A stretch of DNA of 64,000 nucleotides from Candidatus Woesearchaeota archaeon. GTDB lineage: Archaea > Nanobdellota > Nanobdellia > Woesearchaeales > JBAZVA01. A program made the position numbers and the translations under genes. The notes beneath the pieces were generated by a model. It made no database searches and was not told the origin of the DNA. It saw only the letters and a list, made by a program, of their open reading frames with translations. Each line of letters starts with the position of its first letter. The first letter of the stretch is position 1. Shown piece by piece: positions 1,104 through 39,855 of this stretch. Where the stretch lies: contig JBAZVA010000001.1 in NCBI GenBank assembly GCA_041661165.1, positions 9,101-73,100 of the forward strand, given 5' to 3'.

Positions 1104-1262
1104 AAGTTCGTTACTGGCACGCAAAACAGTATAGAAAACTTAGAGTTTTCTATTAGAAGTTCTTTTGAACTTCTTTATTCAGCAATTAAATTAGTTCTTT
1201 AGAATAAGTAATCGTATTAGTACAATTATTTACTCAATATATACAAGGCCGGTAACGAACTT
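1104..1262 (+). repeat. intergenic palindromic-arm element, subfamily B, carrying the 48-nt double-hairpin module II (1131-1178)
   Basis: Arms AAGTTCGTTACTGGC / GCCGGTAACGAACTT. Boxes GCAAAACAGTAT...TTCTTTAGAATAAGTAAT...ACAATTATT. Confidence 0.85.
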
Positions 1263-1315
1263 TCAATACATTTTTTCAGTTAAATTTTTAAATTCATGAT
1301 TATCTTTTACACAAT

Positions 1316-1831
1316 ATGGAAAAAACATTTTATTTAGAGACGGATATGGTTTTTGAAAGCGGTTTCTTAAATTTTATGTTAGATATGTTTCACTTAGACG
1401 AATACGTTTATTGCAGATACATTGATGGAGACCATCATCCAGGTCAATACTTTGATGAAGAATTAATGTTAGAAGTTGATGATTTTGAATTTGATGGCTC
1501 TCGTTGGAAGGTTAAACAAATTGATACTTCTCCTAACGTTATGGTTGTTTATGATACTATAAAAAAAGAAGAAAAATTCACAGGTGCGAACTTAGGTGCA
1601 GACGTAAGTGGTGTTGGACTAGTTGTAACAAAATATTTTGTTTTTGAAGAATCTATTAGAGACGGTCCTATGGATTTTAGATATAATTTAATTCTTTTAG
1701 ACAATTGTGATGTTGAGAAAATAAAAGCAAAATTAAAAGAGTTAAAAATTGCTTTTACAGAACTTCCAAAATATGAACCTAATTCTGAATGGTCTGGATT
1801 TGAACAAATATTAAAATTCGATTTAGTTTAG
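1316..1831 (+). CDS. hypothetical protein (171 aa, acidic)
   Basis: Intact ORF with an AT-rich TATA-like stretch about 25 nt upstream. No recognisable motif. Confidence 0.5.
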   Translation: MEKTFYLETDMVFESGFLNFMLDMFHLDEYVYCRYIDGDHHPGQYFDEELMLEVDDFEFDGSRWKVKQIDTSPNVMVVYDTIKKEEKFTGANLGADVSGVGLVVTKYFVFEESIRDGPMDFRYNLILLDNCDVEKIKAKLKELKIAFTELPKYEPNSEWSGFEQILKFDLV

Positions 1832-1864
1832 TTTCTTATTTTTTTTGTATTTTGTTCTATTTTA

Positions 1865-2006
1865 AAAGTCTTCACCAGCACGCAGACTCCTCGCAGAGGT
1901 AGCCAAGCAACGCAGCTATGTATGCAGTATTATTAATCCAGTTCCAATAGGAGTTTCTATTTAGTACTATTATTAGCACTACATGTGAAGGCTGGTAAGA
2001 AGACTT
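1865..2006 (+). repeat. intergenic element, subfamily A, carrying hairpin module I (1889-1920)
   Basis: AAAGTCTTCACCAGCACGCAGACT[module]TATGCAGT..CCAGTTCCAATAGGA..ATTATTAGCACTACATGTGAAGGCTGGTAAGAAGACTT. Confidence 0.9.
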
Positions 2007-2062
2007 AAGACGATGTCTTAATATTCGTTACATATATAAATTAACAATTGGTTTACTTTAAT

Positions 2063-2860
2063 ATGTCATATCAATCAGAAGTAAGAACGAGAATAATAAG
2101 GCTTTTAGCAAAGCATGATAATTTGAAAGCTAAGCAAATGTATAGAATGCTAAATTTACCAGTAACGTATCAAGCTGTTTTTAAAATGATAAAAACGATG
2201 GTTGATGAAAAGACACTTGACCAAAACAAATTATCATATTCATTAAATGACGATTTCGTAAAAGATACAGTTTCGTTTGTGGAAGAATTAAAAGTAAATG
2301 AAAAAGAAAAATATTCTTCTGTATTATCAAAAGTAAGTGATGGAAAAGAAAAAGTTGTATTAAATTTCAAAAGACAAATTGATTTGTTAGAATTTTTACT
2401 GGGGTTTGTAGAATATCAAACTAGTGCAGCACCAAATGATTATTGCTTGTTTCATGTAAATTGTTTGTTTGGAATATTTTCATTTTCTCCAAAATTAACT
2501 GAGAAACTTCAAAACATTCTTTCAAAATCAAGAGTGTATATTATAGTAAAGCAAGATACAAGATGGAATGATGCGATAATACAACTTTGGAAAAGACTTA
2601 CAGTAAACATAAAATCAGGAGTAAATTTTGGTGGAAAAGATGTTTTAGTGTATAAGAATATTGTTTGTAAAGTAATTTACGATGAAACTAACGCACAAGA
2701 ATTGTGCGAAGTAGCAAGAAAAGTTCAGCAACTTTCAAATATTAATATAATGGAAATGATTTACAATTTGTATGAGAATAATATTAATATCTCATTGGAA
2801 ATTTCAAGCGACCCTAAATTTGCAAGCACATTAAAGGATAGGTTTATGGGAGAGTTTTAG
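2063..2860 (+). CDS. putative winged-helix transcriptional regulator
   Basis: N-terminal RTRIIRLLAKHDNLKAKQMYRMLNLPVTYQAVFKMIKTMVDEKTL resembles a wHTH. The ORF track starts at TTG 2048; the first ATG is at 2063. Confidence 0.5.
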   Translation: MSYQSEVRTRIIRLLAKHDNLKAKQMYRMLNLPVTYQAVFKMIKTMVDEKTLDQNKLSYSLNDDFVKDTVSFVEELKVNEKEKYSSVLSKVSDGKEKVVLNFKRQIDLLEFLLGFVEYQTSAAPNDYCLFHVNCLFGIFSFSPKLTEKLQNILSKSRVYIIVKQDTRWNDAIIQLWKRLTVNIKSGVNFGGKDVLVYKNIVCKVIYDETNAQELCEVARKVQQLSNINIMEMIYNLYENNINISLEISSDPKFASTLKDRFMGEF

Positions 2861-2882
2861 TTCTGATAAAATTATCAACTTT

Positions 2883-3005
2883 AAGTTCTTTACTGGCACA
2901 CAGATTTGTATAGATAATGATATTTCTAACCTAAAATAATTGTTTTTATAAAAGGATTTTTTATATTACAATAATTAATTTTATAATGTCCAAGTATTAG
3001 AAGAT
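2883..3005 (+). repeat. decayed copy of the intergenic element (5' half recognisable)
   Basis: AAGTTCTTTACTGGCACACAGATTTGTATAG at the 5' end. The 3' arm is reduced to ATGTCCAAGTATTAGAAG. Confidence 0.45.
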
Positions 3006-3247
3006 TAAAATGGAAAATATTGTTTAACTATTATTTTAATTTCGTTATAAAATTCTTCTCCGTCTCCTGTAGGTCCACCTAGAAAACTACTATTAGTTGC
3101 AGCATATAAACATCTTTGATCTAAAAGCAAATTGTATATTTTTTCAGAAATGTTGTGTCCGTTTAAACTAAAAATATTTTGAGTAGTTATTCCTTTATTT
3201 GTTTTAGATGTGCTGATAATTCTTTCTAATACCCTCTTAATTTCCAT
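3005..3247 (-). CDS. hypothetical small protein (80 aa)
   Basis: ORF with TATATAAAA-like box about 25 nt upstream on the gene strand. Sits next to the cysteine desulfurase gene. Confidence 0.4.
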   Translation of the reverse strand: MEIKRVLERIISTSKTNKGITTQNIFSLNGHNISEKIYNLLLDQRCLYAATNSSFLGGPTGDGEEFYNEIKIIVKQYFPF

Positions 3248-3316
3248 AGTGTATAAAATAAAAAATCCTTTTATATAGTTTTCGCTCTACTATGAAATAC
3301 TTCTATTTTTGCATCA

Positions 3317-4435
3317 TTACAATAAGTCTTTATAATATTTCTTAAACTTTTCCAAGAAGAAATCAACTTCTTTTTTCGTATTGTATTTAGAAAGCGAGAT
3401 TCTCATACTGCATCTTGCATCTTTATCAGATAATCCTAAAGCAGTTAAAACGTGAGATGGTTTTTTGTTTGACGCAGAACATGCAGAACCGACAGAAACG
3501 AATATGTTGTCTTGCTCTAGATGATGTAACATTACTTCTCCTTCAACGTTCTTCATTAATACATTTAGTATGTTGCAAGCACTCGTTTTGTCATCGACAA
3601 AACCATTTATAGAAATTCCATTTATTTTAATTAATTCAGACATCAAATATTTCTTCAATTTCAGAATATTATCATTTTCAAAATTTTGTTTTATTGCAGT
3701 TCCAAATCCGACAATACCTATCACATTTTGTGTTCCGCTTCTAAGATTTTGCTGTTGATGTCCGCCAAAGAATATTGGTTTTAACTCAATATTTTTTTTA
3801 ATAATAAGTGCGCCAATTCCTTTTGGTCCGTGAATTTTATGTGCAGAAATTGTTATTAAATCCATATTTTGGAATATTTTAGAATCTATTTTCATAAAAG
3901 ATTGTACTGCATCCGTATGAAATATTATTTTAGAATTCTTCAATTTCACAATTTTGCACAATTTTTCAATATCTTGAATCGTCCCAATTTCGTTATTTAC
4001 GTGCATTATAGTTACTAAGAACGTATCTTTTGTAATTGCTTTATCTAATTCATTTTCATCGACAAATCCGTTTTTATCAACATCTAAATATGTAACAGAG
4101 TATCCTTTGCTTTCAAGCTCTTTTATTGGCTCCAAAACAGATGGATGCTCTATTTTCGTAGTGATTATGTGTTTTCCTAAGTGTTTCAAACCGAAAATTA
4201 CTTGATTGTTGCTTTCAGTTCCGCAACTTGTAAAAATTATCTTTTTATCTTCTCCAAAAATCTTTTTAAAATCAGAAACGATTGACTCAATACTTTTTTG
4301 TACAAAAAGTCCAAGCGAATGAAGCGATGATGGATTTCCGTATTCAGTAAAACAATATTTTTCAATCTCCTTTACAACTTCGTCATCAACTTTCGTGGTT
4401 GCAGCATTGTCAAGATATATTATCTCCCTATTCAT
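3317..4435 (-). CDS. cysteine desulfurase (NifS/IscS-type, class V aminotransferase)
   Basis: PLP-lysine context ISAHKIHGPKGIGAL and active-site cysteine loop VSVGSACSA. Length is 372 aa. Confidence 0.9.
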   Translation of the reverse strand: MNREIIYLDNAATTKVDDEVVKEIEKYCFTEYGNPSSLHSLGLFVQKSIESIVSDFKKIFGEDKKIIFTSCGTESNNQVIFGLKHLGKHIITTKIEHPSVLEPIKELESKGYSVTYLDVDKNGFVDENELDKAITKDTFLVTIMHVNNEIGTIQDIEKLCKIVKLKNSKIIFHTDAVQSFMKIDSKIFQNMDLITISAHKIHGPKGIGALIIKKNIELKPIFFGGHQQQNLRSGTQNVIGIVGFGTAIKQNFENDNILKLKKYLMSELIKINGISINGFVDDKTSACNILNVLMKNVEGEVMLHHLEQDNIFVSVGSACSASNKKPSHVLTALGLSDKDARCSMRISLSKYNTKKEVDFFLEKFKKYYKDLL

Positions 4436-4455
4436 GTGTTTAATAGTCCTATATT

Positions 4456-4470
4456 CGTTTAAAAACGTTG
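4456..4470 (-). promoter_or_regulatory. TATA/BRE-like promoter module CGTTTAAAAACGTTG upstream of the cysteine desulfurase gene
   Basis: Centred about 26 nt upstream of ATG 4435. Identical 15-mer to 17322-17336. Confidence 0.5.
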
Positions 4471-4485
4471 TTGTGGCGTTTCAAG

Positions 4486-4593
4486 AAGTCTCAACCAGCA
4501 AACAGACTCGTATGCATTTGTTTTATCCAGTTCCAATCGGAACGTCTAATTTACACAATTATTAGCACTATATGTAAAGGCTGGTGGAGACTT
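4486..4593 (+). repeat. intergenic element, subfamily A
   Basis: AAGTCTCAACCAGCAAACAGACTCGTATGCA..CCAGTTCCAATCGGAAC..ACACAATTATTAGCACTATATGTAAAGGCTGGTGGAGACTT. Confidence 0.9.
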
Positions 4594-4668
4594 TTTACTT
4601 TTTATTAGTATTGGAAGATATAACACACTCTAAAAAGCTTTAAAAATCAGTACTACTTAAGTCCTTAC

Positions 4669-5079
4669 ATGATCAAGCAGTTCATAAGAATTACTTTAAT
4701 AAAAGAAGTAAAGCCGGGTATAGATAACATAAATTCTGATTTGCAGTGGTTTTGTAATACACTAGGTATGTTTAACCTTCGTGACAAGGAAAAAAGTTGT
4801 TATAGATTGTTTGTAGAACTTCTAAAAGCTGCAAGACTTGAAAAAGAAATGTCGAGTGACGATTTGGCAGACAGACTAAATCTTACAAGAGCGACAGTAA
4901 TTCATCATTTAAATTCTTTAATTGCGTCAGGGCTTGTAATTGCAAAAGAGGACAGATATTATTTAAGAGTAAATAATCTAAAAGAGCTTGTAGATTTCGT
5001 AGAAAAAGATGTGATCTCTGTTTTTAAGGATTTAAAAGATGTTGCAGAGAATATTGATGATAAATTAGAGTTGGACTAG
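4669..5079 (+). CDS. ArsR-like winged-helix transcriptional regulator
   Basis: LADRLNLTRATVIHHLNSLIASGLV is a typical ArsR/SmtB recognition helix. Confidence 0.6.
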   Translation: MIKQFIRITLIKEVKPGIDNINSDLQWFCNTLGMFNLRDKEKSCYRLFVELLKAARLEKEMSSDDLADRLNLTRATVIHHLNSLIASGLVIAKEDRYYLRVNNLKELVDFVEKDVISVFKDLKDVAENIDDKLELD

Positions 5080-5134
5080 ACTTTTTTCTTGACAAATTGT
5101 TAATAGAAATTTATCAATTTTTTATAATGATTTT

Positions 5135-5395
5135 TTATTGTTTATACAGCGTAAAAGTAAAACCAATTTTATTTACAACTTCTGCATCCACTAATTTTGC
5201 AACTTCGTATGGGAATTGTTTTTTATCAATATTGTGTTCGTCAATTGCCCCGCCAAGAATTTTCACTTTGATAAGTTTTTTCGCTTTTAATTGTTTTTTA
5301 ATTTCTTCAATTATAAGAGGATCCATTCCTTTCTTCCCAATCCACACTGTTGGTTTTGTTACATGCGACATTGCAACTAAATTTTCTTCTGTCAT
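5135..5395 (-). CDS. YhbY/CRM-domain RNA-binding protein
   Basis: VWIGKKGMDPLIIEEIKKQLKAKKLIKVKIL...VVNKIGFTFTLYK matches the CRS1/YhbY pattern. Length is 86 aa. Confidence 0.7.
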   Translation of the reverse strand: MTEENLVAMSHVTKPTVWIGKKGMDPLIIEEIKKQLKAKKLIKVKILGGAIDEHNIDKKQFPYEVAKLVDAEVVNKIGFTFTLYKQ

Positions 5396-5454
5396 AACAT
5401 ATAGAAATAAACTTTCCTTTTTAAATCTTTAGATGAGTTGAATTTCCTACTTTT

Positions 5455-5573
5455 ACTTATGTCCTGCCAGCACGCAAAACAGTATTCAGTGTCTATATTA
5501 CCTCTTTAGAACGAACAAATTTGATTGGTACTATTATTAGCAATGTAAGCAAGGCTGGCAAGGACATTAAAGT
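5455..5573 (+). repeat. intergenic element, subfamily B
   Basis: Arms ATGTCCTGCCAGC / GCTGGCAAGGACAT. Core GGTACTATTATTAGCAATGTAAGCAAGG. Confidence 0.9.
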
Positions 5574-5625
5574 CCTAACGACATCTTTTTAAACATTCAT
5601 TTGACATAAGAATATAGGGGTATCA

Positions 5626-6573
5626 ATGAATATAGGTCAATTTAAACTAAAAAATAGGATTTCTTTAGCACCCATGGCAGAAGTTACAGATATTGCGTTT
5701 AGAGAACTTTGCATAAAAGAAGGCTGCGGTTTTACAATAACAGAAATGGTGAATGCGCACGCAATAATTCATGCAGACGAAAACACGTTACGAATGACTA
5801 AGACTTCTAAATTAGAATCTCCTAGATGTATTCAAATTTTCGGTGGCGATCATGATGCAGTAATTCAAGCCGCAAAAATAGTTGAAAAAGATTGTGATAT
5901 TCTAAATTTCAATATGGGTTGCCCCGTAGATAAAGTCACATCAATAAATGCGGGAAGCGCACTTCTAAAAGATTTAGTATCAACAAAAAAACTTTTAACA
6001 GACTTAAAGAGCGAGATAAAAATTCCGCTCACAATTAAAACAAGAATAGGTTACGATGACGAGATTAATATTCCACAAGTTGCAAAAATGTGTGAAGAAG
6101 TTGGTATTGATTGTTTAATGATTCATGGCAGAACAAAAGCACAAGGATATTTTGGAAATGCTGATTGGAAAAGTATAGAAACTGCAAAACAAAATTATTC
6201 AGGGCCAGTTATTGGAAACGGAGATGTAATTGATGAAGTTTCTGCAAAAAACATGTTATCTTTTTGTGATGGTGCAATGATTGGTAGAGCAGCAATAGGA
6301 AATCCATTTATTTTTTCAAGAGTAACTCACTTTTTAGAAACTGGGAATTTTTTACCAAAAGAATCTGTTCACGACAGAATTTCTATGTACTACAAATATG
6401 TAAAATTGGCAGAGAAATATAGAATTGGAACTTTAGTAAGACTACGTCAGCAAGCAGTCTGGTTTTGCAAAGGTTTTGTCGGCTCAAAAGATATGCGAAT
6501 GAAAATTTCTTCTGCAAAGACTTATGACGATATTAAAAAAGCGATGGATGATTTCTTATCAGAGAATACTTAG
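5626..6573 (+). CDS. dus: tRNA-dihydrouridine synthase (Dus family)
   Basis: LAPMAEVTDIAFR, NMGCPV (catalytic Cys context) and IHGRT are Dus hallmarks. Confidence 0.9.
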   Translation: MNIGQFKLKNRISLAPMAEVTDIAFRELCIKEGCGFTITEMVNAHAIIHADENTLRMTKTSKLESPRCIQIFGGDHDAVIQAAKIVEKDCDILNFNMGCPVDKVTSINAGSALLKDLVSTKKLLTDLKSEIKIPLTIKTRIGYDDEINIPQVAKMCEEVGIDCLMIHGRTKAQGYFGNADWKSIETAKQNYSGPVIGNGDVIDEVSAKNMLSFCDGAMIGRAAIGNPFIFSRVTHFLETGNFLPKESVHDRISMYYKYVKLAEKYRIGTLVRLRQQAVWFCKGFVGSKDMRMKISSAKTYDDIKKAMDDFLSENT

Positions 6574-6589
6574 GTCAAAACTAAACTAT

Positions 6590-6701
6590 ATGTTTTTTAC
6601 CGGCAAGCAAAACAGTATGCAGTAATATCATTGGTTTTTTAGAAGTAAGTAAATTATTTTGGTACTATTATTGGCAATGTAAGCAAGGCCGGTAAAAACA
6701 T
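6590..6701 (+). repeat. intergenic element, subfamily B
   Basis: ATGTTTTTTACCGGCAAGCAAAACAGTATGCAGT...GGTACTATTATTGGCAATGTAAGCAAGGCCGGTAAAAACAT. Confidence 0.9.
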
Positions 6702-6711
6702 CGTACTAGAA

Positions 6712-7002
6712 TTATTCTTTTTTCTTTTTCATTTCTTGAACGGTCTTAACAAAACATTCTATTTGTTTTTCAGACAATCCTTCGTATTTTATATAATTTA
6801 TTTTTATAGAACGTAAAAACATATTTTGCATGTAGAATTCTTCAGGAATATCAAACATTGCTTTCATTGCAGGGTCTTTAATTTCAGTAGAAAGTTGTGC
6901 TTTTTGACAATCGTAGCATATAGGATATTGACTTCGTCCGGAAATTAAAACCATGTTTTTCTTACATTGGTTACATCTTTGCTTGTATGATACTTTTACC
7001 AT
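6712..7002 (-). CDS. zinc-ribbon protein, function unknown
   Basis: CNQC...x15...CYDC four-cysteine ribbon at the N-terminus. Length is 96 aa. Confidence 0.5.
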   Translation of the reverse strand: MVKVSYKQRCNQCKKNMVLISGRSQYPICYDCQKAQLSTEIKDPAMKAMFDIPEEFYMQNMFLRSIKINYIKYEGLSEKQIECFVKTVQEMKKKKE

Positions 7003-7037
7003 GTATTAGAAGACGAGTTGTTAGTTTATAAAATTTC

Positions 7038-8060
7038 CTACGTAGTTTTCTGACTATCTGATGCATATTTTTCGTGTATGGGATTAATGAGTTCAAAAGT
7101 TTCAAATATCCTTTTTGTATATTCTGTATTGATATATATGACTTGGCCTTTATTTTTTAAATTAATATTCATTTCAAATTCAGAAAATAAGTCTTTTATT
7201 GTGGTATTGTAACTATCTCCTTTTTTTCTTAATTCCAGATATTTTTTTGATGCATTGTAAGTAGCATGACCTATAATTCCTTCTAAAAAATTCTTTTTTG
7301 CGGCAAGAGTTATTATTGACTTTGGTAATTTTCTTTGATTTTTGTCTATTTCAATTCCTATGTCGTAAGAAATCCAAGTTGTAATTGCTTTTGAATTTAT
7401 TTCAACCATGGGTAATGAATAGGTGTGAAAATTTCCTGATTTTCCAACAATGTTTTTAAAATTTTTAATAGGTATTTTGCCTTCGTCATCAAGAATATTG
7501 TAATTAAATAATTTTAAAACTATTTTTGAAAGATATTTTTCAAAAATAGATAAATCATTATTGTTTCCAACAAGTCTTATTTTTCTTGGGATTTTCTCGC
7601 CTGATAACATTTTTACTGTTTTTATTTCTGCATCTGCAAAAAGATATCCGAGCAATCTTAATTCATCACCATTTACATGAATTGGAAGAGTTATGTCATG
7701 AAGCCAGTCAAAATCACTTGGTACAAATTTACTCCATATCTTTCTTGCTGCAAAAAGATTTCCGCGATAGTTGTCTGTATCTCTTCTTAGAAGCGCCATG
7801 TAATTTGCATCTAAATTCTCATTATTTTTGTACATTAGTGCTTCTTGTTTGTATTGACGTTTTAGAATTTTGTCTATGTCTGCACCTTTGTTTAAATTAA
7901 AAATTAAGTTTTCTAAATCTTTTTTTGTAAATTGAGTGTGTTTGTATTGCTTGAAAAGTTTTGCACCTTCTAATATTTTTTCATTATTATCAAAAATTCT
8001 TCTTATCCAAGATAAATATGATTCTTTAATTTGCAAACGTTTGGTAACAATAGTATTCAT
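7038..8060 (-). CDS. hypothetical protein with two degenerate LAGLIDADG-like motifs
   Basis: LLGYLFADAEI and FLEGIIGHATY lie about 100 aa apart and weakly resemble a double LAGLIDADG fold. The canonical acidic residues are not clearly kept. Confidence 0.45.
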   Translation of the reverse strand: MNTIVTKRLQIKESYLSWIRRIFDNNEKILEGAKLFKQYKHTQFTKKDLENLIFNLNKGADIDKILKRQYKQEALMYKNNENLDANYMALLRRDTDNYRGNLFAARKIWSKFVPSDFDWLHDITLPIHVNGDELRLLGYLFADAEIKTVKMLSGEKIPRKIRLVGNNNDLSIFEKYLSKIVLKLFNYNILDDEGKIPIKNFKNIVGKSGNFHTYSLPMVEINSKAITTWISYDIGIEIDKNQRKLPKSIITLAAKKNFLEGIIGHATYNASKKYLELRKKGDSYNTTIKDLFSEFEMNINLKNKGQVIYINTEYTKRIFETFELINPIHEKYASDSQKTT

Positions 8061-8131
8061 TATAGAAACATATTAGAAGATATAATATATAAAAGTTACT
8101 ATTATTTAGTAGTTCTTAAATAAATTATAAT

Positions 8132-8267
8132 CTGCTCTGTACAAAGTCTTTTTACCGGCCTTGCTTGTGTTGCTAATAATTGTACTAATTTAATTACATA
8201 TTCTAAAGAGCTCTTTAATTACTGCATACTGTTTTGCTTGCCGGTAGAGACATTTTGGACAGAGCTG
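8132..8267 (-). repeat. intergenic element, subfamily B, full-length arms
   Basis: Plus strand reads CTGCTCTGTACAAAGTCTTTTTACCGGCC...GCCGGTAGAGACATTTTGGACAGAGCTG, about 27-bp imperfect arms. Confidence 0.9.
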
Positions 8268-8311
8268 ATATAATCCAAGAATTTATATACAATTGATTAT
8301 TGATATTTTTT

Positions 8312-9268
8312 ATGAAGAAAATAAAAACTATGATAATAGTTTTGCTTTTACTAATGTTTGTATGTGGTTCTTTTATTGCAGTTATTGCACTTTTGGAAAA
8401 TATGAAAAATAATCCTTTTGCAAAGAAAACAAGTGATTATTCTATTAAATCCATTCAAGATTATAATATAAATTTATGTGCTGGCGTTAGTTCTGTTCAT
8501 GAAGGATACGATGGTATTGGAATTAAATTGCAACCTTATGATTCAGAGTCAAACGAATTGATAAACGCAGAAAATTTTGATGGGTTTGTTAATTTTCCAA
8601 AGCAAGGTGCAGGTTCTAGTGTTTCTTCAAAAGATTTTACTTGTTATATTAGCGATCCAACTTTTTATTTTTCCGTAAATATTAATGCAAAAGATTACAT
8701 TTCTGTAAAAGATTTGGCGATAAATCCTGTCGCGGTTGGAAAAATGTATTTGATTAAAGTGCCTATGCATAAAAAACCTGCATGTTATTATGATAAAGAA
8801 AATTTACAAACTTTTTCTGAATATATAAATAACAATTTTGGATTAGATAGTACCAAATACTCACTTACGTGTATGGATTCTAGCATAAGCAGAGGCGGAT
8901 TTGTAAAATCAAGTGGAAAATATAATGATGGTGGAAGTTTTGAAGTATTTTATCGTTGGGGTTCCTGCAGTTCAGGTGGTGCAGATTGTGGTCATAGCAG
9001 TTGTTTTGCAGTAGAAGGTAATGATAATTTGTTTCAAACTGTAAAGACAAAATTATGCAATGATTTGTATTCTTATAATCATGTTTATCCAGTACGTTGC
9101 ACAGAAGGTGTTGATTATGATAACACTGAAGAAATAAGAAAAAAATGTATGGCTGGTGAATATGACTATGTTAGTGGAAATAAACAAGTTATTTCTATAA
9201 TTCAAGATGGGAATGCATGTTCTGCTTCAGTTAAAAAAGGTAATTTAGATTGTTTAGGTATTAACTAG
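8312..9268 (+). CDS. secreted or membrane-anchored cysteine-rich protein
   Basis: N-terminal hydrophobic anchor IIVLLLLMFVCGSFIAVIALL with many Cys in the C-terminal half. ATG at 8312; the track starts at TTG 8300. Confidence 0.55.
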   Translation: MKKIKTMIIVLLLLMFVCGSFIAVIALLENMKNNPFAKKTSDYSIKSIQDYNINLCAGVSSVHEGYDGIGIKLQPYDSESNELINAENFDGFVNFPKQGAGSSVSSKDFTCYISDPTFYFSVNINAKDYISVKDLAINPVAVGKMYLIKVPMHKKPACYYDKENLQTFSEYINNNFGLDSTKYSLTCMDSSISRGGFVKSSGKYNDGGSFEVFYRWGSCSSGGADCGHSSCFAVEGNDNLFQTVKTKLCNDLYSYNHVYPVRCTEGVDYDNTEEIRKKCMAGEYDYVSGNKQVISIIQDGNACSASVKKGNLDCLGIN

Positions 9269-9291
9269 AATTCTTTGCTAAATTTATTATA

Positions 9292-9407
9292 AGAAATGTT
9301 TTTACCAGCAAGCAGATTTGTATGCAGATTTATGATGTGGTTCCAATCGGCACTTCTTATTAACACAATTATTAGCACCATATGTAAAGGCTGGTTGAAA
9401 CATTTCT
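9292..9407 (+). repeat. intergenic element, subfamily A
   Basis: Arms AGAAATGTTTTTACCAGC / GCTGGTTGAAACATTTCT. Core ACACAATTATTAGCACCATATGTAAAGG. Confidence 0.9.
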
Positions 9408-9431
9408 AATAGTGTCGTTTAGAATTTATAA

Positions 9432-10529
9432 TTATCTAATATGTACTTCAACAACATCCTTATCAACTAAAACATGCGGTAAAGACAATTTCTGTCCTGG
9501 AAATTTAGCAGATTTTCCCCATACACGAGCGTATTTGAATTTTGCAATAAAATCTTTGTGTACTTTTCTACAGAACTCTTCAATAGTCGAGCCACCAAAC
9601 ATAATTAATGGTTCACCTAAATCTGCAACTTTTCCTTGTTCTTTAGTGTATACTCTCATGAAATTTAACTTTTTGTAAACAACTTTTTTTAATTCTTCAA
9701 GATTCCATTTTGTAAATGTGGAAATAAATATGTCAACAGGATATTTTTTCTTTAGATTTTCCATTTCTTGTTCTGTAAGTAAATCAGATTTATTTACAAT
9801 TACAACACCTGAAATATATTTTTTGTTTGATTCAATTACATCAATAAGTTGATCTGCAGTGATATCTTCACGAACAACTATTTGACAATTGTTTAATCTG
9901 AATTCTCGCAAAATTTCTTCAATTGTTTTCTGATCAAGTTTTGTTAATTTTACTGTGGTTGCAAAATCAATTCCGCCTTTAGCCATTTTTTTAATTTTAA
10001 CATCTGGTTTTCTTTCATTAATTCTTATTTTTGCATCTTTTACTTCTTGCATTATACTATTGTAGCATTCAGGATGTCTTGCATCTAAAACTATTAATGC
10101 AAGTTCTGCTGAGTGCATTGCAGACAAAACTTCTCTACCACGACCTCTACCTGATGCTGCGCCGGAAACAATACCTGGTACATCTAAAATTTGAATTGAT
10201 GCGTCCATGAATTTTAAAACTCCGGGAACAACAGAAAGAGTTGTGAATGCGTATGCAGCAACTTCAGAATGTGCATCAGTTAATGCGTTTAAGATTGAAG
10301 ATTTTCCTACAGATGGATAACCAAGTAAAATTACAGTTGCGTCACCAGATTTTGAAACTACAAATCCAGTTCCTGCGCCACCACTTGCTGCTGCTCTTGA
10401 TTCTTCTTTATCTTTTAATTTTGCGATTTTTGCTTTTACAAGTCCAAGTGCAAGCTGAGTACTTTTATTGTATTTTGTTTCAGATATTTGTTTTTCAAGC
10501 TCTTTTATCTGTGAATTATAATCTACCAT
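9432..10529 (-). CDS. DRG/Obg-like GTPase with C-terminal TGS domain
   Basis: G1 GYPSVGKSS, G3 DVPGIV and G4 NKSD, plus a C-terminal TGS-like segment. Confidence 0.9.
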   Translation of the reverse strand: MVDYNSQIKELEKQISETKYNKSTQLALGLVKAKIAKLKDKEESRAAASGGAGTGFVVSKSGDATVILLGYPSVGKSSILNALTDAHSEVAAYAFTTLSVVPGVLKFMDASIQILDVPGIVSGAASGRGRGREVLSAMHSAELALIVLDARHPECYNSIMQEVKDAKIRINERKPDVKIKKMAKGGIDFATTVKLTKLDQKTIEEILREFRLNNCQIVVREDITADQLIDVIESNKKYISGVVIVNKSDLLTEQEMENLKKKYPVDIFISTFTKWNLEELKKVVYKKLNFMRVYTKEQGKVADLGEPLIMFGGSTIEEFCRKVHKDFIAKFKYARVWGKSAKFPGQKLSLPHVLVDKDVVEVHIR

Positions 10530-10582
10530 AATAGTAAATACAAAATAGTGATTTATAAATGTGGTTATTATATTATTGAGGG

Positions 10583-10750
10583 TGTGTCAAAGTCTTCATA
10601 TCAGCACGCAGAACAGTATAGAAAACATCAGTTTTCTATTAGAAGTTCCTTAGAACTTCTTTATGCAGTATATTAGTCCAGTTTCTACAGTACTTCTAAT
10701 TTACACAATTATTAGTACTATATGTGAAGGCTGGTGAGAAGACTTTGAAA
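10583..10750 (+). repeat. intergenic element, subfamily A, carrying module II (10619-10665)
   Basis: GTGTGTCAAAGTCTTCATATCAGCACGCAGAACAGTAT[module]GCAGT...ATTATTAGTACTATATGTGAAGGCTGGTGAGAAGACTTTGA. Confidence 0.9.
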
Positions 10751-10783
10751 AGAACTTATGGTGATGTAATGTCAAACGTTTTT

Positions 10784-11542: not shown

Positions 11543-11618
11543 TGTGTTTTTTGAGAATTAATATTTATTTTTTAAATCTTTCGCTATTCTTAAGTGATGT
11601 CAAAATTTACTTTGTTTT

Positions 11619-11733
11619 AAAAGTCTTCATACCAGCAAGCAGATTTGTATGCAGATTAATAATCCAGTTTCTACCAGTACTTCTAATTTACACAATTATT
11701 AGTACTATATGTGAAGGCTGGTAAGAAGACTTT
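11619..11733 (+). repeat. intergenic element, subfamily A
   Basis: AAAAGTCTTCATACCAGCAAGCAGATTTGTATGCAG...ATTATTAGTACTATATGTGAAGGCTGGTAAGAAGACTTT. Confidence 0.9.
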
Positions 11734-11815
11734 GATTGTGTTTTGGAGATATTTATGACAGTGAAATTTATAAACAAGATAATCTTAGAAAACATGTGAA
11801 TAAAGGGGGTAAAAT

Positions 11816-12115
11816 ATGAAAAAAATACTAACAATAATTCTTTTGGTGCTAGTCAGTGCATTATTATTTGGTTGTGCGGTAACAAAAGTCGCAGACATAA
11901 AAAAAGAAGATATGATTGGAAAAACAGTTTCGATTCATGGAACGGTTAAGTCAACATTCAAACTAGGGTCATTGTCCGGTTATACAATGACTATGGAGGA
12001 TGGAGAATTATTAGTGTCCTCAAAATCTTTGCCTGCTGAAGGAAAAGAAATGTCTGTCAAAGGTGTTGTAATGAAAGATAGTATAATTCAATATTACATT
12101 AAAGCAAACGAATAA
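11816..12115 (+). CDS. small lipoprotein-like secreted protein
   Basis: Signal peptide with lipobox-like LLFGC. GGGGGT Shine-Dalgarno-like sequence 6 nt upstream of the ATG. Confidence 0.55.
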   Translation: MKKILTIILLVLVSALLFGCAVTKVADIKKEDMIGKTVSIHGTVKSTFKLGSLSGYTMTMEDGELLVSSKSLPAEGKEMSVKGVVMKDSIIQYYIKANE

Positions 12116-12116
12116 G

Positions 12117-12274
12117 GTGTGTATCAAACGTCATACCAGCACGCAGAACCTCGCAGAGGTAGCCAAGCAACGCGGCTATAGTAGCAGATTACAAGTCCGG
12201 TTCCAATAGGAACTTCTATTTAATACAATTATTAGTACTACATGTCAAGGCTGGTATGAAAAATTGAAACACAC
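12117..12274 (+). repeat. intergenic element, subfamily A, carrying module I (12149-12180)
   Basis: Starts 2 nt after the stop at 12115. GTGTGTATCAAACGTCATACCAGCACGCAGAA[module]GTAGCAG...GGCTGGTATGAAAAATTGAAACACAC. Confidence 0.85.
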
Positions 12275-12298
12275 AAAATAAATAATAACGTTGATAGC

Positions 12299-18243: not shown

Positions 18244-18403
18244 GAATTCGCCCTTGTGTTTCTTAACTCAAATCAAAACATTGCTCTTTATAATCTTTTC
18301 TAATATTACTACTGTTTAATAGTATGTAAATCTAAAACTAATTCTTCAAATTATTTTGCTTTTTAGAAAATAATGGGCAATTATTATTTTTATAAAAAAA
18401 CTT

Positions 18404-24841: not shown

Positions 24842-24926
24842 GAATTTACTGATTTAATGGAATTTAATAATATTCTGTTTATGTATGTTAGACCTGCTTT
24901 TTTATAAAAAATTGACGTTATTTAAT

Positions 24927-25068
24927 AAGTCTTCACCAGCTTTGCTTACATTGCTAATAATAGTGCCAATTTAATCATATATTCTAAAGAACAAACTTAA
25001 TTACTGCATACTGTTACCTCGTAAGAGGTAGCCAAGTGCAACGCGGCTATGCGTGCTGGTAAAGACTT
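24927..25068 (-). repeat. intergenic element, subfamily B, carrying module I in inverted orientation relative to the host (25017-25050)
   Basis: Plus strand reads AAGTCTTCACCAGCTTTGCTTACATTGCTAATAATAGTGCC...ACTGCATACTGTTA[CCTCGTAAGAGGTAGCCAAGTGCAACGCGGCTAT]GCGTGCTGGTAAAGACTT. Confidence 0.9.
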
Positions 25069-25090
25069 CAAAAACAGGGTAAAAATGTCT

Positions 25091-25218
25091 GCTCTGTAGA
25101 AAACATACACGGCCTTGCATATGTTGCAATAATAGTTACTAATTTTACTTGCTGTATCTAAAGAACAAATTTTAATTGCTTATTACTTATGCTTGCCGGT
25201 TGAACGTTTCTACAGAGC
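25091..25218 (-). repeat. intergenic element, subfamily B (diverged), 22 nt from the previous copy
   Basis: GCTCTGTAGAAAACATACACGGCCTTGCATATGTTGCAATAATAG...GCTTGCCGGTTGAACGTTTCTACAGAGC. Confidence 0.8.
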
Positions 25219-25350
25219 TAAAATGTCGTTAAATTTATAAACCACTACGCGCCCGTAATTACTACAATACTGGGGGTTTTGGGTAATAAACAAATACACA
25301 CTCTAAGCCACTAAAAACTTATACTAATATTTAGAAAACGGTGATGAAAT

Positions 25351-29061: not shown

Positions 29062-29165
29062 AACATTAATGATGTAGTATTAGTATTTAAAGATTTCTAC
29101 ACAGTATCACATATTACTATACTAATATTTTCTACTGCCCCGTTGTACTATTATTTTTAGCAAAG

Positions 29166-29356
29166 GCTCTGTCAAAAAAGTTATCACCAGCACGCAAAAC
29201 CTCACAGAGGTAAATAAGCGTAGCGCATTTATCTCAAAGAGGTAGCCAAGTGCAACGCGACTATAGTAAATCGGTATTATAGTTCCAATAGTCGCTCTTA
29301 ATTGGCACAATTATTAGCACTACATGTCAGGCTTGTGGATAAATTTTTGACAGAGC
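29166..29356 (+). repeat. intergenic element, subfamily A, with two tandem module I units (29200-29232, 29233-29266)
   Basis: GCTCTGTCAAAAAAGTTATCACCAGCACGCAAAA[2 modules]TAAATCGG..AGTTCCAATAG..ACAATTATTAGCACTACATGTCAGGCTTGTGGATAAATTTTTGACAGAGC. Confidence 0.85.
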
Positions 29357-29402
29357 TCTGAAAAAGCAGCCTTTTTAAAGAAGTTTTCTTTACCTATAAA
29401 AT

Positions 29403-30429: not shown

Positions 30430-30637
30430 AATCTATCAAATACTCTTTTTATTTATATTTTGTCCGTTTTTACGGATATCTTTTTGGTCAAAAAATTACC
30501 GCCAAAAAACACGTCATAAACGTTCTACTATTAATATTCTTCAATCCTAAACGATAAAGCCTATGATTTGTGACCGAATGGTATTAATAAAGGCTTGACC
30601 TATGTATGTGTAGAACAAACTAATTTGGGATTAGGAT

Positions 30638-30770
30638 GTGTCCCAAAAAGTCCATTACCGGCAAACAAAACAGTATGCAGTCATTAAGTATGCTCTTTAG
30701 AATAGGCAACTAAAATGGGCACAATTATTAGCTATGTATGCAAGGCCGGTAATGTTGACTTTGAAGACAC
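30638..30770 (+). repeat. intergenic element, subfamily B, full-length arms
   Basis: GTGTCCCAAAAAGTCCATTACCGGCAAACAAAACAGTATGCAGT...ACAATTATTAGCTATGTATGCAAGGCCGGTAATGTTGACTTTGAAGACAC. Confidence 0.9.
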
Positions 30771-30816
30771 CTTAAGACTTAAAAAATAATTAAACGGCAA
30801 AACGGAGGCTAAAACC

Positions 30817-31023: not shown

Positions 31024-31026
31024 ATC

Positions 31027-32565: not shown

Positions 32566-32585
32566 TTTTTTTTAAAACAACGAAA

Positions 32586-32715
32586 GTGTGTCCAACGTTT
32601 GTCTTGCCGGTAAGCAGACACGTTTGCAATTATAATTTTTCATACTTTGAAGCAATCATTGATGAGAAACAGAATTGCAAAACAAGCAAGATTGGCAAAG
32701 ACAATTTGGACACAC
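32586..32715 (+). repeat. intergenic element, subfamily C
   Basis: GTGTGTCCAACGTTTGTCTTGCCGGTAAGCAGACACGTTTGCAATTAT...AAGCAAGATTGGCAAAGACAATTTGGACACAC. The interior resembles 37765-37884. Confidence 0.8.
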
Positions 32716-32752
32716 ATAACAACACAAAACAATTAAATATAGAAATGAGGTA

Positions 32753-36794: not shown

Positions 36795-36891
36795 TATTAC
36801 TCAATAATTGATGTATCTGAGATGTTCTGTTTTTTGTTAATAATTTCACAAGTTAGATATCCTTATAAATTATTTTTCTCAAACTATTATT

Positions 36892-37680: not shown

Positions 37681-37695
37681 TATTTATATCTATAA

Positions 37696-37968
37696 TAAGT
37701 AATAAGTGTTCACACGTACCGGCTCTCTAACGTTTGCAAGTAAGTTTCATTCATTTTCACGTACGTCCTTGTGTTTTCACAAGCAAGCAGACACCTCTGC
37801 AATTATGTTTATTCATGCTATAAAGCAATTATTCTTACTAATATAATAGTGATACAATGAAGGCCGGTGAAAACACTATAGGACATAACTAGTTCTCACA
37901 AACGATGTATGAAGAAATATTTAGCGTTAATAATTGTATTTGCCGGTGGAGTGAACACTTATTACTTA
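37696..37968. repeat. composite: outer palindromic-arm element interrupted by an inner subfamily C element
   Basis: Outer arms TAAGTAATAAGTGTTCAC (37696-37713) and GTGAACACTTATTACTTA (37951-37968), with inner ACCGGC...GCCGGT. Confidence 0.7.
37765..37884 (+). repeat. intergenic element, subfamily C, nested inside the outer element
   Basis: GTCCTTGTGTTTTCACAAGCAAGCAGACACCTCTGCAATTAT...GAAGGCCGGTGAAAACACTATAGGAC. Confidence 0.8.
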
Positions 37969-37978
37969 CAAACTAAGT

Positions 37979-38428
37979 TTAGTTTTCTTTATTCCAATAA
38001 AATAGTCTGACAATATATTCTTCATTTATTTTTCCGTCTGTTGCAATATATGTGTTCTCATTTATCACATCAGAAGATGGAATTCCTGTAGGGATAGAAT
38101 TAATATTTTTTGTAACGATAAATGTATATGACGATTGATACTCTTGTGGAAGAAATGTTTTTATGTAATTATCAACACACGTCACATTATATAACACAAC
38201 ACAGTGTCTGAAGTTTTCGTTTTGTCCTAATTTGTTTAATACTCCAACTGAATCTTTACCAATGTTATTAGCACCAGACGGAATTAAGAATGCTGTAAAA
38301 ACTACGATGATTAGTGATGCAATTACGGCTTCTAAAGTTTTCATTGCTCCTTTCTTATTCTGTATTTGAAATTTGTGTTTTCTTAATACTTTCTTTTTTT
38401 TCACAATATTAAAAATATTTATTGCCAT
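37979..38428 (-). CDS. archaeal type IV pilin-like protein (class III signal peptide)
   Basis: KKGAMKTLEAVIASLIIVVFTAFLI is a prepilin-type N-terminus. Confidence 0.55.
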   Translation of the reverse strand: MAINIFNIVKKKKVLRKHKFQIQNKKGAMKTLEAVIASLIIVVFTAFLIPSGANNIGKDSVGVLNKLGQNENFRHCVVLYNVTCVDNYIKTFLPQEYQSSYTFIVTKNINSIPTGIPSSDVINENTYIATDGKINEEYIVRLFYWNKEN

Positions 38429-39675
38429 ACTTTTACTCCCATCGTTACTATTTCTGTTGTACCATTATTTTGAATTAAATATTCATTCCATCTTTTGATA
38501 AATACATTTGACGTTTTTTGAGGTTCTGCAAACGAATATTTGTACTTTTCAGAATAATTAATATCAGTCATTAAAAGTTGAAAATTCATACCATTTGGTA
38601 TACTATACTCTGCTCTTATTTGGTTTGGTGTTTTCTTGGTAATATTTGAAAGCCTATCTATTGAAACTCCACTTTTCGTTGTAATTATTCCTGTATAAGC
38701 ATCAATTCTGTCTTTTTTAACATATTGCGAACCAAGTGGATTGTTTGAAAATATCATTTCTAAATGTTTCGGGTTATGTATTGTCATTTCTAAATCAAAT
38801 GTGTTCATACATAATGATATTGGAGAACTTTCCATTACAAAAGTAAGTATGGTACTAGAATCAGAAACTTCGAAAACATCTGCCGTGAAATTCATACATG
38901 AAGTTGTGTTATATGAAAAAGTTCCATTTGATGCGGGATATATAAAAAATTCGTTGTAATTTTTTAAATTAAATTTTAAATAATATGGAGTTTGTGAATT
39001 TGTATATAGATACATTCTTGAAGTGTCTGCAAACATATATTCTTTGTGTGTCATAAAATTATTTTTTTGAGTTGAAACTACTGCTACAGATTGGTTTATC
39101 AATTTCGTGTCAAGCATAAGTGATTTTTGTCCATCTGATGTGTAAATACTAAAATTAGCAACTCTTTGTTTGTTTAGATAAGTTATAGTATCAAGATTAC
39201 CATTCTTGTAGTTTGCTAAAAACTGTTTCGTATCAACATATACATTTGAATTTTGAACTCTAAGTTGTTTGCTATTTATTTCATCTCTATGGCTGGTTTG
39301 ATTTAAATCACTTGATATTATTTTTATTTTTGTTTGATTTTTTGAAATATCTTCCATAAAAATAAGCTCGTTATCATAATAGTAAAAATTTCTGTTGTCA
39401 TCTAGTCTTAAATTTGAAAAAGGATAATCGAGCGAAACAATAATTGGTTCAAGTCCTGTTCTTTTTGAATCAATAAATATTGGTAAAGAATCAACATTTT
39501 GAGTATAATCATTCATAAAACTGTATTTGATATTTGTAAGTGCTGCTTTTTCATCAACAAAAACTTTCTGATGCGGAGATACAACAACAAAAGTGAATAC
39601 TAAGAATAATAAGAATAGTGCTAGACTTACAATCCAGTCAACTTGTGACGACCCTCTTTTTTCAAAAAAACTCAT
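38419..39675 (-). CDS. large archaeal pilin-like / cell-surface protein (class III signal peptide)
   Basis: EKRGSSQVDWIVSLALFLLFLVFTFVV at the N-terminus. Overlaps the downstream pilin-like gene by 10 nt. Confidence 0.5.
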   Translation of the reverse strand: MSFFEKRGSSQVDWIVSLALFLLFLVFTFVVVSPHQKVFVDEKAALTNIKYSFMNDYTQNVDSLPIFIDSKRTGLEPIIVSLDYPFSNLRLDDNRNFYYYDNELIFMEDISKNQTKIKIISSDLNQTSHRDEINSKQLRVQNSNVYVDTKQFLANYKNGNLDTITYLNKQRVANFSIYTSDGQKSLMLDTKLINQSVAVVSTQKNNFMTHKEYMFADTSRMYLYTNSQTPYYLKFNLKNYNEFFIYPASNGTFSYNTTSCMNFTADVFEVSDSSTILTFVMESSPISLCMNTFDLEMTIHNPKHLEMIFSNNPLGSQYVKKDRIDAYTGIITTKSGVSIDRLSNITKKTPNQIRAEYSIPNGMNFQLLMTDINYSEKYKYSFAEPQKTSNVFIKRWNEYLIQNNGTTEIVTMGVKVWQ

Positions 39676-39723
39676 AAGAATTGATAATGAATATCTGTTT
39701 ATATATGTTATTTACTTACTTGA

Positions 39724-39855
39724 GTGTGTCCTAAAAGTCAGTTACCTGCAAGCAAAACAGTATTCAACATTTAAATTGGTCCTTTAGAATAAGTAATATT
39801 ATTGGTACAATTATTAGCAACATAAACAAGGCCGGTAACTTAGACTTTGGACACA
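39724..39855 (+). repeat. intergenic element, subfamily B; the 3' arm overlaps the last codons and stop of the RIO kinase gene
   Basis: GTGTGTCCTAAAAGTCAGTTACCTGCAAGCAAAACAGTATTCA...ACAATTATTAGCAACATAAACAAGGCCGGTAACTTAGACTTTGGACACA. Confidence 0.9.

What the first reader, a model, noticed from the sequence alone, without database searches (positions are those of the whole stretch)
1104..39855. The terminal arms co-vary within each copy
The arm segment between the AAAGTC box and the CCRGC box differs between copies but stays matched within a copy. At 1104-1262 the arms are GTTCGTTACTGGC / GCCGGTAACGAAC, and CGTTAC occurs only in this copy, in both arms. At 5455-5573 they are GTCCTGCCAGC / GCTGGCAAGGAC. 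At 6590-6701 they are GTTTTTTACCGGC / GCCGGTAAAAAC. At 30638-30770 they are GTCCATTACCGGC / GCCGGTAATGTTGAC. At 39724-39855 they are GTCAGTTACCTGC / GCCGGTAACTTAGAC. A transposase-bound inverted repeat would be expected to keep one sequence across copies. Here each copy keeps complementarity instead, which points to selection for, or concerted repair of, a hairpin or cruciform. In the 1104 copy, CTGGC pairs with GCCGG through a T:G position. That works as a U:G wobble only if the + orientation strand is the folded RNA. This is a single observation and therefore weak.
Basis: partly seen in the sequence, partly recalled or inferred. Interest (0 to 1): 0.75.

Follow-up and report, generated by a model that had tools for sequence, protein, structure and literature searches.

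The report
Hairpin repeat family with co-varying arms
A small archaeal (Woesearchaeota) genome carries a ~145-base non-coding repeat in about every second gap between genes, and each copy keeps its two ends complementary while the end sequences differ between copies, so the folded shape rather than the sequence of the arms is what is preserved.

Summary
The five copies belong to a family with 25 copies in the 64 kb window and 90 in 226 kb of the same Woesearchaeota (DPANN) population. Each copy has a conserved, asymmetric ~80-nt core closed by a 20-30 bp stem. A copy's 5' arm pairs with its own 3' arm far better than with arms of other copies (z = -16). This holds even against the copy with the most similar core (60 of 77, p = 1.5e-8). 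In the 11 bp next to the core, 10 of 11 pairs show double compensatory changes, and 0 of 500 shuffles reach the observed values. Arm variants do not track core similarity, so shared subfamily ancestry does not explain the pattern.

The RNA hint is not supported. G:U-type and A:C-type mismatches are equally common (28 v 25). Orientation relative to neighbouring genes is random (15 v 16). No internal helix covaries, and Rfam has no match.

The family is absent from the closest relatives found. No general target-site duplications and no partner transposase were found. My best reading is a REPIN/MITE-like DNA hairpin element recognised by shape plus core sequence. Mobility and the protein partner are inferred, not shown.

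The parts
1097..1271 (+). Copy with insert module A; arms GTTCGTTACTGGC / GCCGGTAACGAAC
1847..2023 (+). Copy with insert module B (forward)
4467..4612 (+). Compact copy (core subfamily B)
5439..5586 (+). Compact copy; anchor variant GCCAGC/GCTGGC (compensated)
6572..6720 (+). Compact copy; arms ATGTTTTTTACCGGC / GCCGGTAAAAACAT
8127..8272 (-). Compact copy with full-length stem (GCTCTGTCC... / ...GTACAGAGC) and the two offset bulges
9277..9422 (+). Compact copy, 15 nt downstream of the DRG GTPase stop codon
10573..10762 (+). Copy with module A; twin of 11604-11749 (9% core divergence)
11604..11749 (+). Compact copy; twin of 10573-10762, the pair flanking ORF 10784-11542
12108..12281 (+). Copy with module B (forward)
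24908..25087 (-). Copy with module B in reverse orientation
25081..25227 (-). Divergent copy abutting the previous one; arms GCTCTGTAGAAA... / ...TTTCTACAGAGC; flanked by GACATTTT direct repeat
29165..29363 (+). Divergent copy with insert
30630..30777 (+). Compact copy; arms GTCCATTACCGGC / GCCGGTAATGTTGAC
32579..32723 (+). Divergent copy; anchor GCCGGT/ATTGGC with two G:T pairs
37752..37895 (+). Divergent copy; private arms GTGTTTTCAC / GTGAAAACAC
39717..39863 (+). Compact copy; arms GTCAGTTACCTGC / GCCGGTAACTTAGAC
40725..40871 (+). Compact copy
42321..42467 (-). Compact copy
44453..44598 (-). Compact copy; arms ATTGTCCGAT... / ...ATCGGACAAT; best DNA fold z-score (-6.2)
48168..48312 (-). Weak, divergent copy; anchor AGCAGC/GCTGCT (compensated)
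53007..53152 (-). Compact copy; arm variant GAAGTATTCTACC / GGTAAGAATACTTC
60047..60192 (+). Compact copy
62230..62377 (+). Compact copy with full-length stem
62683..62815 (-). Degenerate copy; anchor ACTGG/CCAGT (compensated)

Best explanation
The arms belong to a lineage-specific, very abundant family of non-coding, hairpin-forming intergenic repeats. Copies are about 145 nt, or up to about 190 nt with optional inserts. The host is a Woesearchaeota (DPANN) genome.

Each copy has a conserved asymmetric core. A 5' block reads GCAMGCA..TATGCAG and a 3' block reads ACAATTATTAGCA..AAGG, with a variable middle between them. A 20-30 bp stem closes the core. From the inside out the stem is ACCRGC/GCYGGT, then GTCTTT/AAAGAC, then an outer ..TGTC../..GACA.. 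helix. Two 2-nt bulges sit on opposite strands.

I think the element works as DNA. It is a selfish, non-autonomous, REPIN/MITE-like element. Its spread or persistence requires the two arms to pair in a single-stranded or cruciform form. A trans-acting protein reads that shape, the bulges and the core sequence blocks. Because only pairing is read in the arms, arm mutations survive when they are compensated, so arms drift between copies but stay matched within a copy. Arm-to-arm templated repair may add to this.

Shown here: the covariation, the density, the intergenic location, the neutrality of orientation, the lack of wobble bias and the absence from relatives. Inferred: mobility, the DNA level of action and the protein partner.
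For: - Covariation is strong and is not explained by ancestry.
- 25 copies lie in 64 kb, and 90 in 226 kb of the same population. This is about 0.36-0.38 copies per kb, or roughly 5-6% of the sequence.
- 87 of 89 copies are intergenic, in either orientation (15 sense v 16 antisense in tandem intergenic regions).
- G:U-type and A:C-type mismatches are equally frequent.
- No consensus internal helix appears in any core subfamily, so the core is conserved as sequence.
- Rfam gives no match.
- The terminal stem appears in every minimum-free-energy fold and in the DNA centroid folds, with z-scores from -2 to -6.
- The family is absent from contigs of the closest relatives found, whose DRG GTPase is 67-91% identical in protein. 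This includes a 15.7 kb contig.
- In those relatives the GTPase gene and a 99-aa ORF are adjacent. In the window they are separated by two copies and an extra ORF.
- Small insert modules occur only inside copies, one of them in both orientations, which is a DNA-level event.
- There is precedent. Compensatory changes on both sides of REPIN hairpins are described as common (PMC3116915), and a Woesearchaea genome ranks among the highest archaeal MITE densities (PMC11602168).
Against: - No partner enzyme was found. There is no multi-copy ORF family and no IS200-like hit in 226 kb. The only transposase in the window (rve, 18409-19293) has unrelated ends.
- There are no near-identical copies. Core identity has a median of 58% and a maximum of 89%. 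This differs from REPIN populations with a master sequence and from recent MITE bursts.
- Stem integrity does not fall with the age proxy (rho = -0.23). That fits maintenance in place as well as it fits selection acting through copying.
- No empty site was obtained at nucleotide resolution.
- Only about a fifth of the genome was available, on my assumption of a DPANN genome of about 1-1.5 Mb.
Confidence: 0.45

Rival explanations
1. Concerted repair without selection. The arms form a quasi-palindrome. During replication or repair one arm templates the other, through template switching or mismatch correction in an extruded hairpin. A mutation is then either erased or copied across, and complementarity persists passively in resident copies.
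For: - Stem differences are decoupled from core divergence, and compensated differences are 4-5 times more common than expected.
- Stems do not decay with the age proxy.
- There is no strand or wobble bias.
- An insert module is found in both orientations inside a small hairpin loop, as expected from template switching at inverted repeats.
Against: - Two offset 2-nt bulges (an extra dinucleotide in the 5' arm, AA in the 3' arm) recur in many copies of different subfamilies. Frequent arm-to-arm templating should erase them.
- About 11% of inner-stem cells remain unpaired.
- This reading does not explain why the core blocks are conserved or how the family reached its density.
Confidence: 0.2
2. 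A family of structured non-coding RNAs or cis-regulatory RNA elements, with the stem kept by selection on RNA folding.
For: - The stem covaries strongly.
- Single-stranded core blocks are conserved.
- Copies abut gene ends.
Against: - There is no orientation preference relative to flanking genes (15 v 16).
- G:U-type mismatches are not favoured over A:C-type.
- RNAalifold finds no internal helix, overall or per subfamily.
- Rfam gives no match at the gathering or relaxed threshold.
- The family is absent from relatives.
Confidence: 0.1
3. An ordinary terminal-inverted-repeat MITE mobilised by a DDE transposase. The matched arm variants are then simply inherited from different master copies.
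For: - The elements are small, non-coding, intergenic, abundant and carry terminal inverted repeats.
- A few copies carry flanking direct repeats of 6-9 nt. With loose boundaries this is 11 of 62 against 5% in controls, p = 3e-4. Examples are GACATTTT at 25081-25227 and CTTATC at 44453-44598.
- An rve transposase lies in the window.
Against: - Arm variants do not follow core relatedness.
- At least 36 extra pair types occur in 11 pairs, which implies many independent compensations.
- With strict boundaries, 20 of 22 well-delimited copies have no flanking direct repeat.
- The ends of the rve element are unrelated.
- No longer element shares these ends in the 226 kb examined.
Confidence: 0.12
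4. Host-beneficial DNA elements, such as binding sites for a chromatin, topology or recombination protein, selected in place at each locus.
For: - The family is old and diverse with no master sequence.
- Stems stay intact regardless of divergence.
- Core sequence blocks are conserved.
Against: - The family is absent from the nearest relatives and from the orthologous intergenic regions that could be compared.
- Copies sit in every kind of intergenic region, with no positional rule found.
Confidence: 0.1

Closest known systems
REPINs (REP doublets forming hairpins) mobilised by RAYT/Y1-HUH transposases in bacteria
   Same: - About 100-150 nt, present in hundreds of copies and extragenic.
- Form a long hairpin in single-stranded DNA.
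- Compensatory changes on both sides of the hairpin (PMC3116915).
- No general target-site duplication.
- No transposase inside the element.
   Different: - In REPINs the arm ends (REP 16-mers) are the conserved part and the spacer varies. Here the arms vary and the loop-side core is conserved.
- REPIN populations have a dominant master sequence. Here the maximum core identity is 89%.
- No RAYT was found in the sequence available.
- REPINs are reported as not detected in archaea (bioRxiv 10.1101/2021.07.10.451892).
Prokaryotic MITEs (e.g. Correia/CREE, ERIC/IRU, archaeal MITEs of Sulfolobus)
   Same: - Short, non-autonomous, intergenic and with inverted-repeat ends.
- High copy number.
- A census lists a Woesearchaea genome among the highest archaeal MITE densities, 105 per Mb (PMC11602168).
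   Different: - The ends are not sequence-conserved.
- Target-site duplications are mostly absent.
- No parent insertion sequence was found.
- Density here is about 360 per Mb, roughly three times that census figure.
IS200/IS605-derived PATE elements and their hairpin ends
   Same: Hairpin-dependent recognition with bulged bases in single-stranded DNA, no target-site duplication and no conserved terminal inverted repeats. This resemblance rests on my own knowledge of the family, not on a test here.
   Different: - In IS200/IS605 each end carries its own small subterminal hairpin. Here the 5' end pairs with the 3' end.
- No TnpA or TnpB gene was found.
Integron attC sites
   Same: Imperfect inverted repeats whose structure, not sequence, is conserved, with extrahelical bases. 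They are recombined as folded single strands.
   Different: - Copies here lie in both orientations.
- They flank housekeeping genes (Dus, DRG GTPase, thermosome), not cassettes.
- There is no R''/R' (RYYYAAC/GTTRRRY) arrangement.
- No integrase of that type was seen.

Membership tests
MITE (DDE-type, TIR + TSD) | Terminal inverted repeats whose sequence is shared by the copies and by a parent insertion sequence | tested here: not met
   The arms are complementary within a copy but differ between copies. Ungapped pairwise arm distance is 0.60. No longer element shares these ends in 226 kb. The ends of the rve insertion sequence are unrelated.
MITE (DDE-type, TIR + TSD) | Target-site duplication of fixed length flanking each copy | tested here: inconclusive
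   With strict boundaries, 2 of 22 copies have a 6-9 nt direct repeat. With loose boundaries it is 11 of 62, against 5% in controls. The best-preserved copies have none.
MITE (DDE-type, TIR + TSD) | Short, non-coding, multi-copy and intergenic | tested here: met
   Copies are 145-190 nt. There are 25 in the window and 90 in 226 kb. 87 of 89 are intergenic.
REPIN-RAYT system | Two inverted arms forming a long hairpin, with compensatory changes | tested here: met
REPIN-RAYT system | Conserved REP sequences (often GTAG/CGTC-tagged) in both arms, and a master sequence dominating the population | tested here: not met
   The arms vary while the core is conserved. No two cores are more than 89% identical.
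REPIN-RAYT system | A single-copy RAYT (Y1 HUH) gene in the genome, usually flanked by the repeats | tested here: inconclusive
   phmmer found no hit in 226 kb, but the query was an IS608 TnpA sequence recalled from memory. No Y1_Tnp domain was found among the window ORFs of at least 100 aa that I scanned. Most of the genome was not available.
Structured RNA family (Rfam-type) | Match to a curated covariance model | tested here: not met
   There were 0 hits at the gathering threshold over the whole window. A relaxed search of 1-13,000, which holds ten copies, gave only chance-level hits to unrelated families.
Structured RNA family (Rfam-type) | Strand-specific signature: G:U tolerated over A:C, and a fixed orientation relative to transcription | tested here: not met
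   G:U-type v A:C-type counts are 31 v 32, 28 v 25 and 36 v 48. Orientation is 15 sense v 16 antisense.
Integron attC | Same-orientation array of cassettes, with R''/L''-L'/R' boxes and AAC...GTT at the outer ends | tested here: not met
   Orientations are mixed, housekeeping genes lie between copies and there are no R boxes.
Archaeal bulge-helix-bulge (splicing endonuclease substrate) | Two 3-nt bulges on opposite strands separated by a 4-bp helix | tested here: not met
   The topology is similar, with bulges on opposite strands. However, the bulges are 2 nt and the central helix is 3-6 bp. No register gives the 3-4-3 arrangement (read from the sequences).

The most novel reading that the evidence does not exclude
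This is the first archaeal counterpart of a REPIN-like system. It would be a long-lived population of DNA hairpin elements recognised by shape plus a conserved loop-side core, rather than by arm sequence. A single-copy, possibly domesticated, structure-specific nuclease or transposase in a reduced DPANN genome would maintain it. Compensatory arm evolution would occur in place.
Probability: 0.2. Interest if true: 0.7.

Novelty: new variant of a known kind. Interest (0 to 1): 0.55.

Why it matters
Hairpin-forming interspersed repeats maintained by structure are well studied in bacteria (REP/REPIN, ERIC). They are said not to have been detected in archaea. Here one occupies about 5-6% of the sequence held for a DPANN genome, a group usually described as streamlined.

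The architecture is inverted relative to REPINs: the stem is free in sequence and the loop-side core is conserved. That gives a clean natural experiment on what a recognising protein reads.

If a partner enzyme exists, it would be a structure-specific DNA enzyme from a little-explored lineage. If none exists, the family would be a good case of palindrome maintenance by templated repair.

Tried and rejected
- Rfam at gathering and relaxed thresholds gave nothing relevant. There are no tRNA-like features.
- The genome contigs pattern scan gave only chance hits in unrelated bacteria, so the source species is not in that collection. The viral-contig scan also gave only chance hits.
- Integron attC was rejected on orientation, gene content and boxes.
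- Bulge-helix-bulge was rejected on bulge and helix sizes.
- Fold-back copying of one arm from the other at each insertion was rejected because asymmetric bulges are conserved.
- A link to the rve transposase at 18409-19293 was rejected because its ends are unrelated.
- The search for a multi-copy ORF family or an IS200-like transposase in 226 kb was negative, but this is a weak test.
- ORF 10784-11542, which sits between the twin copies, has no Pfam or NCBIfam hit.
- The empty-site search in the 91%-identical relative L167 failed because gene order differs downstream.
- Internal core helices were not found by RNAalifold, overall or per subfamily.
- The first local arm alignments picked up spurious AT-rich flanks. 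I replaced them with anchored alignments.

Full report
**What is there.** They are members of a much larger family. A profile HMM built from ten obvious copies finds 20 copies in the window and, after refinement, 23. A covariance model finds 25, two of them weak. The window is archaeal and has about 30% G+C. It encodes a thermosome, ELP3, a DRG-type GTPase and a eukaryote-type glycogen synthase. Its proteins are on record as 'MAG: Candidatus Woesearchaeota archaeon', on a 79,220-bp contig.

**More copies from the same organism.** A DNA-pattern scan of one-genome-per-species references returned only chance hits in unrelated bacteria. A scan of metagenome contigs returned about 40 contigs of one sample, Ga0172379. 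One of these is 99.96% identical to window 10224-12881, so they come from the same population. Together with the window this gives 226 kb holding 90 copies. That is about 0.36-0.38 copies per kb, or roughly 5-6% of the DNA. 87 of 89 copies are intergenic.

**Anatomy.** A compact copy is about 145 nt.
- Its core of about 80 nt is asymmetric and is conserved as sequence.
- The 5' block reads GCAMGCA-N6-TATGCAG and the 3' block reads ACAATTATTAGCA..AAGG.
- The middle of the core is variable and defines at least three subfamilies.
- A stem closes the core. From the inside out it is ACCRGC/GCYGGT, then GTCTTT/AAAGAC, then an outer helix ending in ..TGTC../..GACA.. plus 3-4 further paired bases.
- In many copies of different subfamilies the 5' arm carries two extra bases outside GTCTTT, and the 3' arm carries AA between GGT and AAAGAC. 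These form two small bulges on opposite strands.
- Every copy shows the terminal stem in its minimum-free-energy fold. Six copies folded as DNA keep it in the centroid structure, with z-scores from -2 to -6.
- Some copies carry one of two small insert modules in the 5' block. Module B (30 nt) occurs in either orientation, and neither module is found outside copies.

**Is the covariation real?** Three tests say yes.
1. An alignment-free test on 77 full copies. Own-arm duplexes average -30.3 kcal/mol against -21.9 for arms from different copies. After removing row and column effects the own-pair interaction is -8.3 kcal/mol (z = -16), and none of 10,000 permutations come close.
2. A control for ancestry. 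I paired each 5' arm with the 3' arm of the copy whose core is most similar (median 19% divergent). The copy's own partner is still better in 60 of 77 cases (p = 1.5e-8).
3. Column counts on alignments anchored at the invariant ACCRGC/GCYGGT boxes.
   - In 49 seed copies the inner 11-bp helix is 92.6% paired, with 61 double-change cells against 18.7 +/- 3.7 in shuffles.
   - In all 90 copies it is 88.5% paired, and 10 of 11 pairs show double changes.
   - There are 109 double-change cells against 34 +/- 4.5, and 36 additional pair types against 21 +/- 1.7. No shuffle out of 500 reaches either value.
   - Slid registers score 0.07-0.14 against 0.297.
   - The pair and type counts are the measures least inflated by relatedness.

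Between pairs of copies, compensated double differences make up 11% of stem cells. Independent change predicts about 2.5%. The per-site stem difference is 0.27 even for pairs whose cores differ by less than 20%, so arm variants do not follow core genealogy.

- Gapped arm alignments give 31 G:U-type mismatches on the element strand against 32 A:C-type.
- The model alignment gives 28 v 25, or 36 v 48 when two register-ambiguous pairs are included.
- In intergenic regions between co-directional genes, 15 copies are sense and 16 antisense.
- RNAalifold finds no helix inside the core, overall or per subfamily.
- Rfam has no match.

A selected RNA would be expected to favour G:U over A:C and to keep a fixed orientation relative to transcription. 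Neither is seen. I therefore place the constraint on DNA, either single-stranded on either strand or cruciform. This is an inference.

**Mobile or resident?** In favour of gain by insertion, the closest relatives I could fetch carry no copy.
- These relatives have DRG GTPase orthologues 67-91% identical in protein. One of their contigs is 15.7 kb long.
- In three of these relatives the GTPase gene and a 99-aa ORF are neighbours, 65-270 nt apart.
- In the window the same two genes are separated by copy, 252-aa ORF, copy.

Against a simple burst of a classical MITE:
- Cores are only 58% identical at the median and at most 89%.
- With strictly defined ends, 20 of 22 well-delimited copies lack flanking direct repeats. 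Looser boundaries give a modest excess, 11 of 62 against 5%.
- No ORF family is multi-copy, and no IS200-like protein turned up in 226 kb.
- The one transposase in the window, an rve-type DDE enzyme at 18409-19293, has unrelated ends.
- Stem integrity does not decline with the age proxy (rho = -0.23).

**Best reading and its rivals.** I favour a REPIN/MITE-like, non-autonomous DNA element. Its propagation or persistence depends on a folded form, read by shape, bulges and core sequence by a protein I could not find (confidence 0.45).

The main rival is passive concerted repair of a quasi-palindrome (0.2). It fits the decoupling and the lack of decay, but it should erase the conserved bulges and it does not explain core conservation.

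A structured RNA (0.1), an ordinary DDE-type MITE with inherited arm variants (0.12) and a host-selected DNA site (0.1) are each contradicted by at least one test above. None is excluded.

**Comparison with known families.**
- The closest analogue is the bacterial REPIN-RAYT system. Its hairpins also show common compensatory changes (PMC3116915).
- This family differs in three respects. The conserved part is the loop-side core rather than the arm ends, there is no master sequence, and no RAYT was found.
- REPINs are stated not to have been detected in archaea (bioRxiv 10.1101/2021.07.10.451892).
- A large MITE census lists a Woesearchaea genome among the densest archaeal genomes at 105 per Mb, without characterising the elements (PMC11602168). 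The density here is about 360 per Mb.
- Integron attC sites and archaeal bulge-helix-bulge motifs share single features, but each fails a defining feature.

**Verdict.** The main gaps are the missing partner protein and direct evidence of mobility.

Noticed in passing
window 18409-19293 (-), candidate ends 18308-18325 / 19352-19369: This is an rve (integrase-core) DDE transposase of 294 aa with an N-terminal HTH-like region (Pfam E = 1.3e-18). It is probably an IS481/IS3-like insertion sequence. Its inverted repeats are unrelated to the hairpin element.
   Followed up: partly
window 10784-11542 (-): This 252-aa ORF has no Pfam or NCBIfam hit. It is flanked by the two most similar copies in the window, both in + orientation with 9% core divergence. 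In three relatives the genes on either side (DRG GTPase and a 99-aa ORF) are adjacent, so copy-ORF-copy looks like an inserted block.
   Followed up: partly
window 1889-1918, 12149-12178 (forward), 25024-25049 (reverse); also L075, L090 and others: A 30-nt two-hairpin module (CCTCGCAGAGGTAGCCAAGCAACGCGGCTA) is inserted in the 5' core block of about 13 of 90 copies from all core subfamilies. It occurs in either orientation and never outside copies.
   Followed up: partly
window 12151: This is the only difference over 2,658 nt between the window and contig Ga0172379_10078820 (T v G). It lies inside module B of copy 12108-12281 and would break a pair of the module's CCTC/GAGG hairpin.
   Followed up: no
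window 1132-1174, 10630-10660; L070 9-51, L093 5817-5856, L153 4169-4211: A second optional insert, module A, is 43 nt with two hairpins (TAGAAAAC..GTTTTCTA and AGAAGTTC..GAACTTCT). It sits at the same place in the 5' block of about six copies.
   Followed up: no
window 24908-25227 (-): Two copies of different subfamilies lie back to back upstream of the thermosome gene. The second is flanked by the direct repeat GACATTTT, the clearest candidate target-site duplication in the data.
   Followed up: partly
window 54669-60035: This cluster encodes a GT4/GT5-like glycosyltransferase, a GH57 enzyme and a eukaryote-type glycogen synthase (PF05693, E = 2.6e-132).
   Followed up: no
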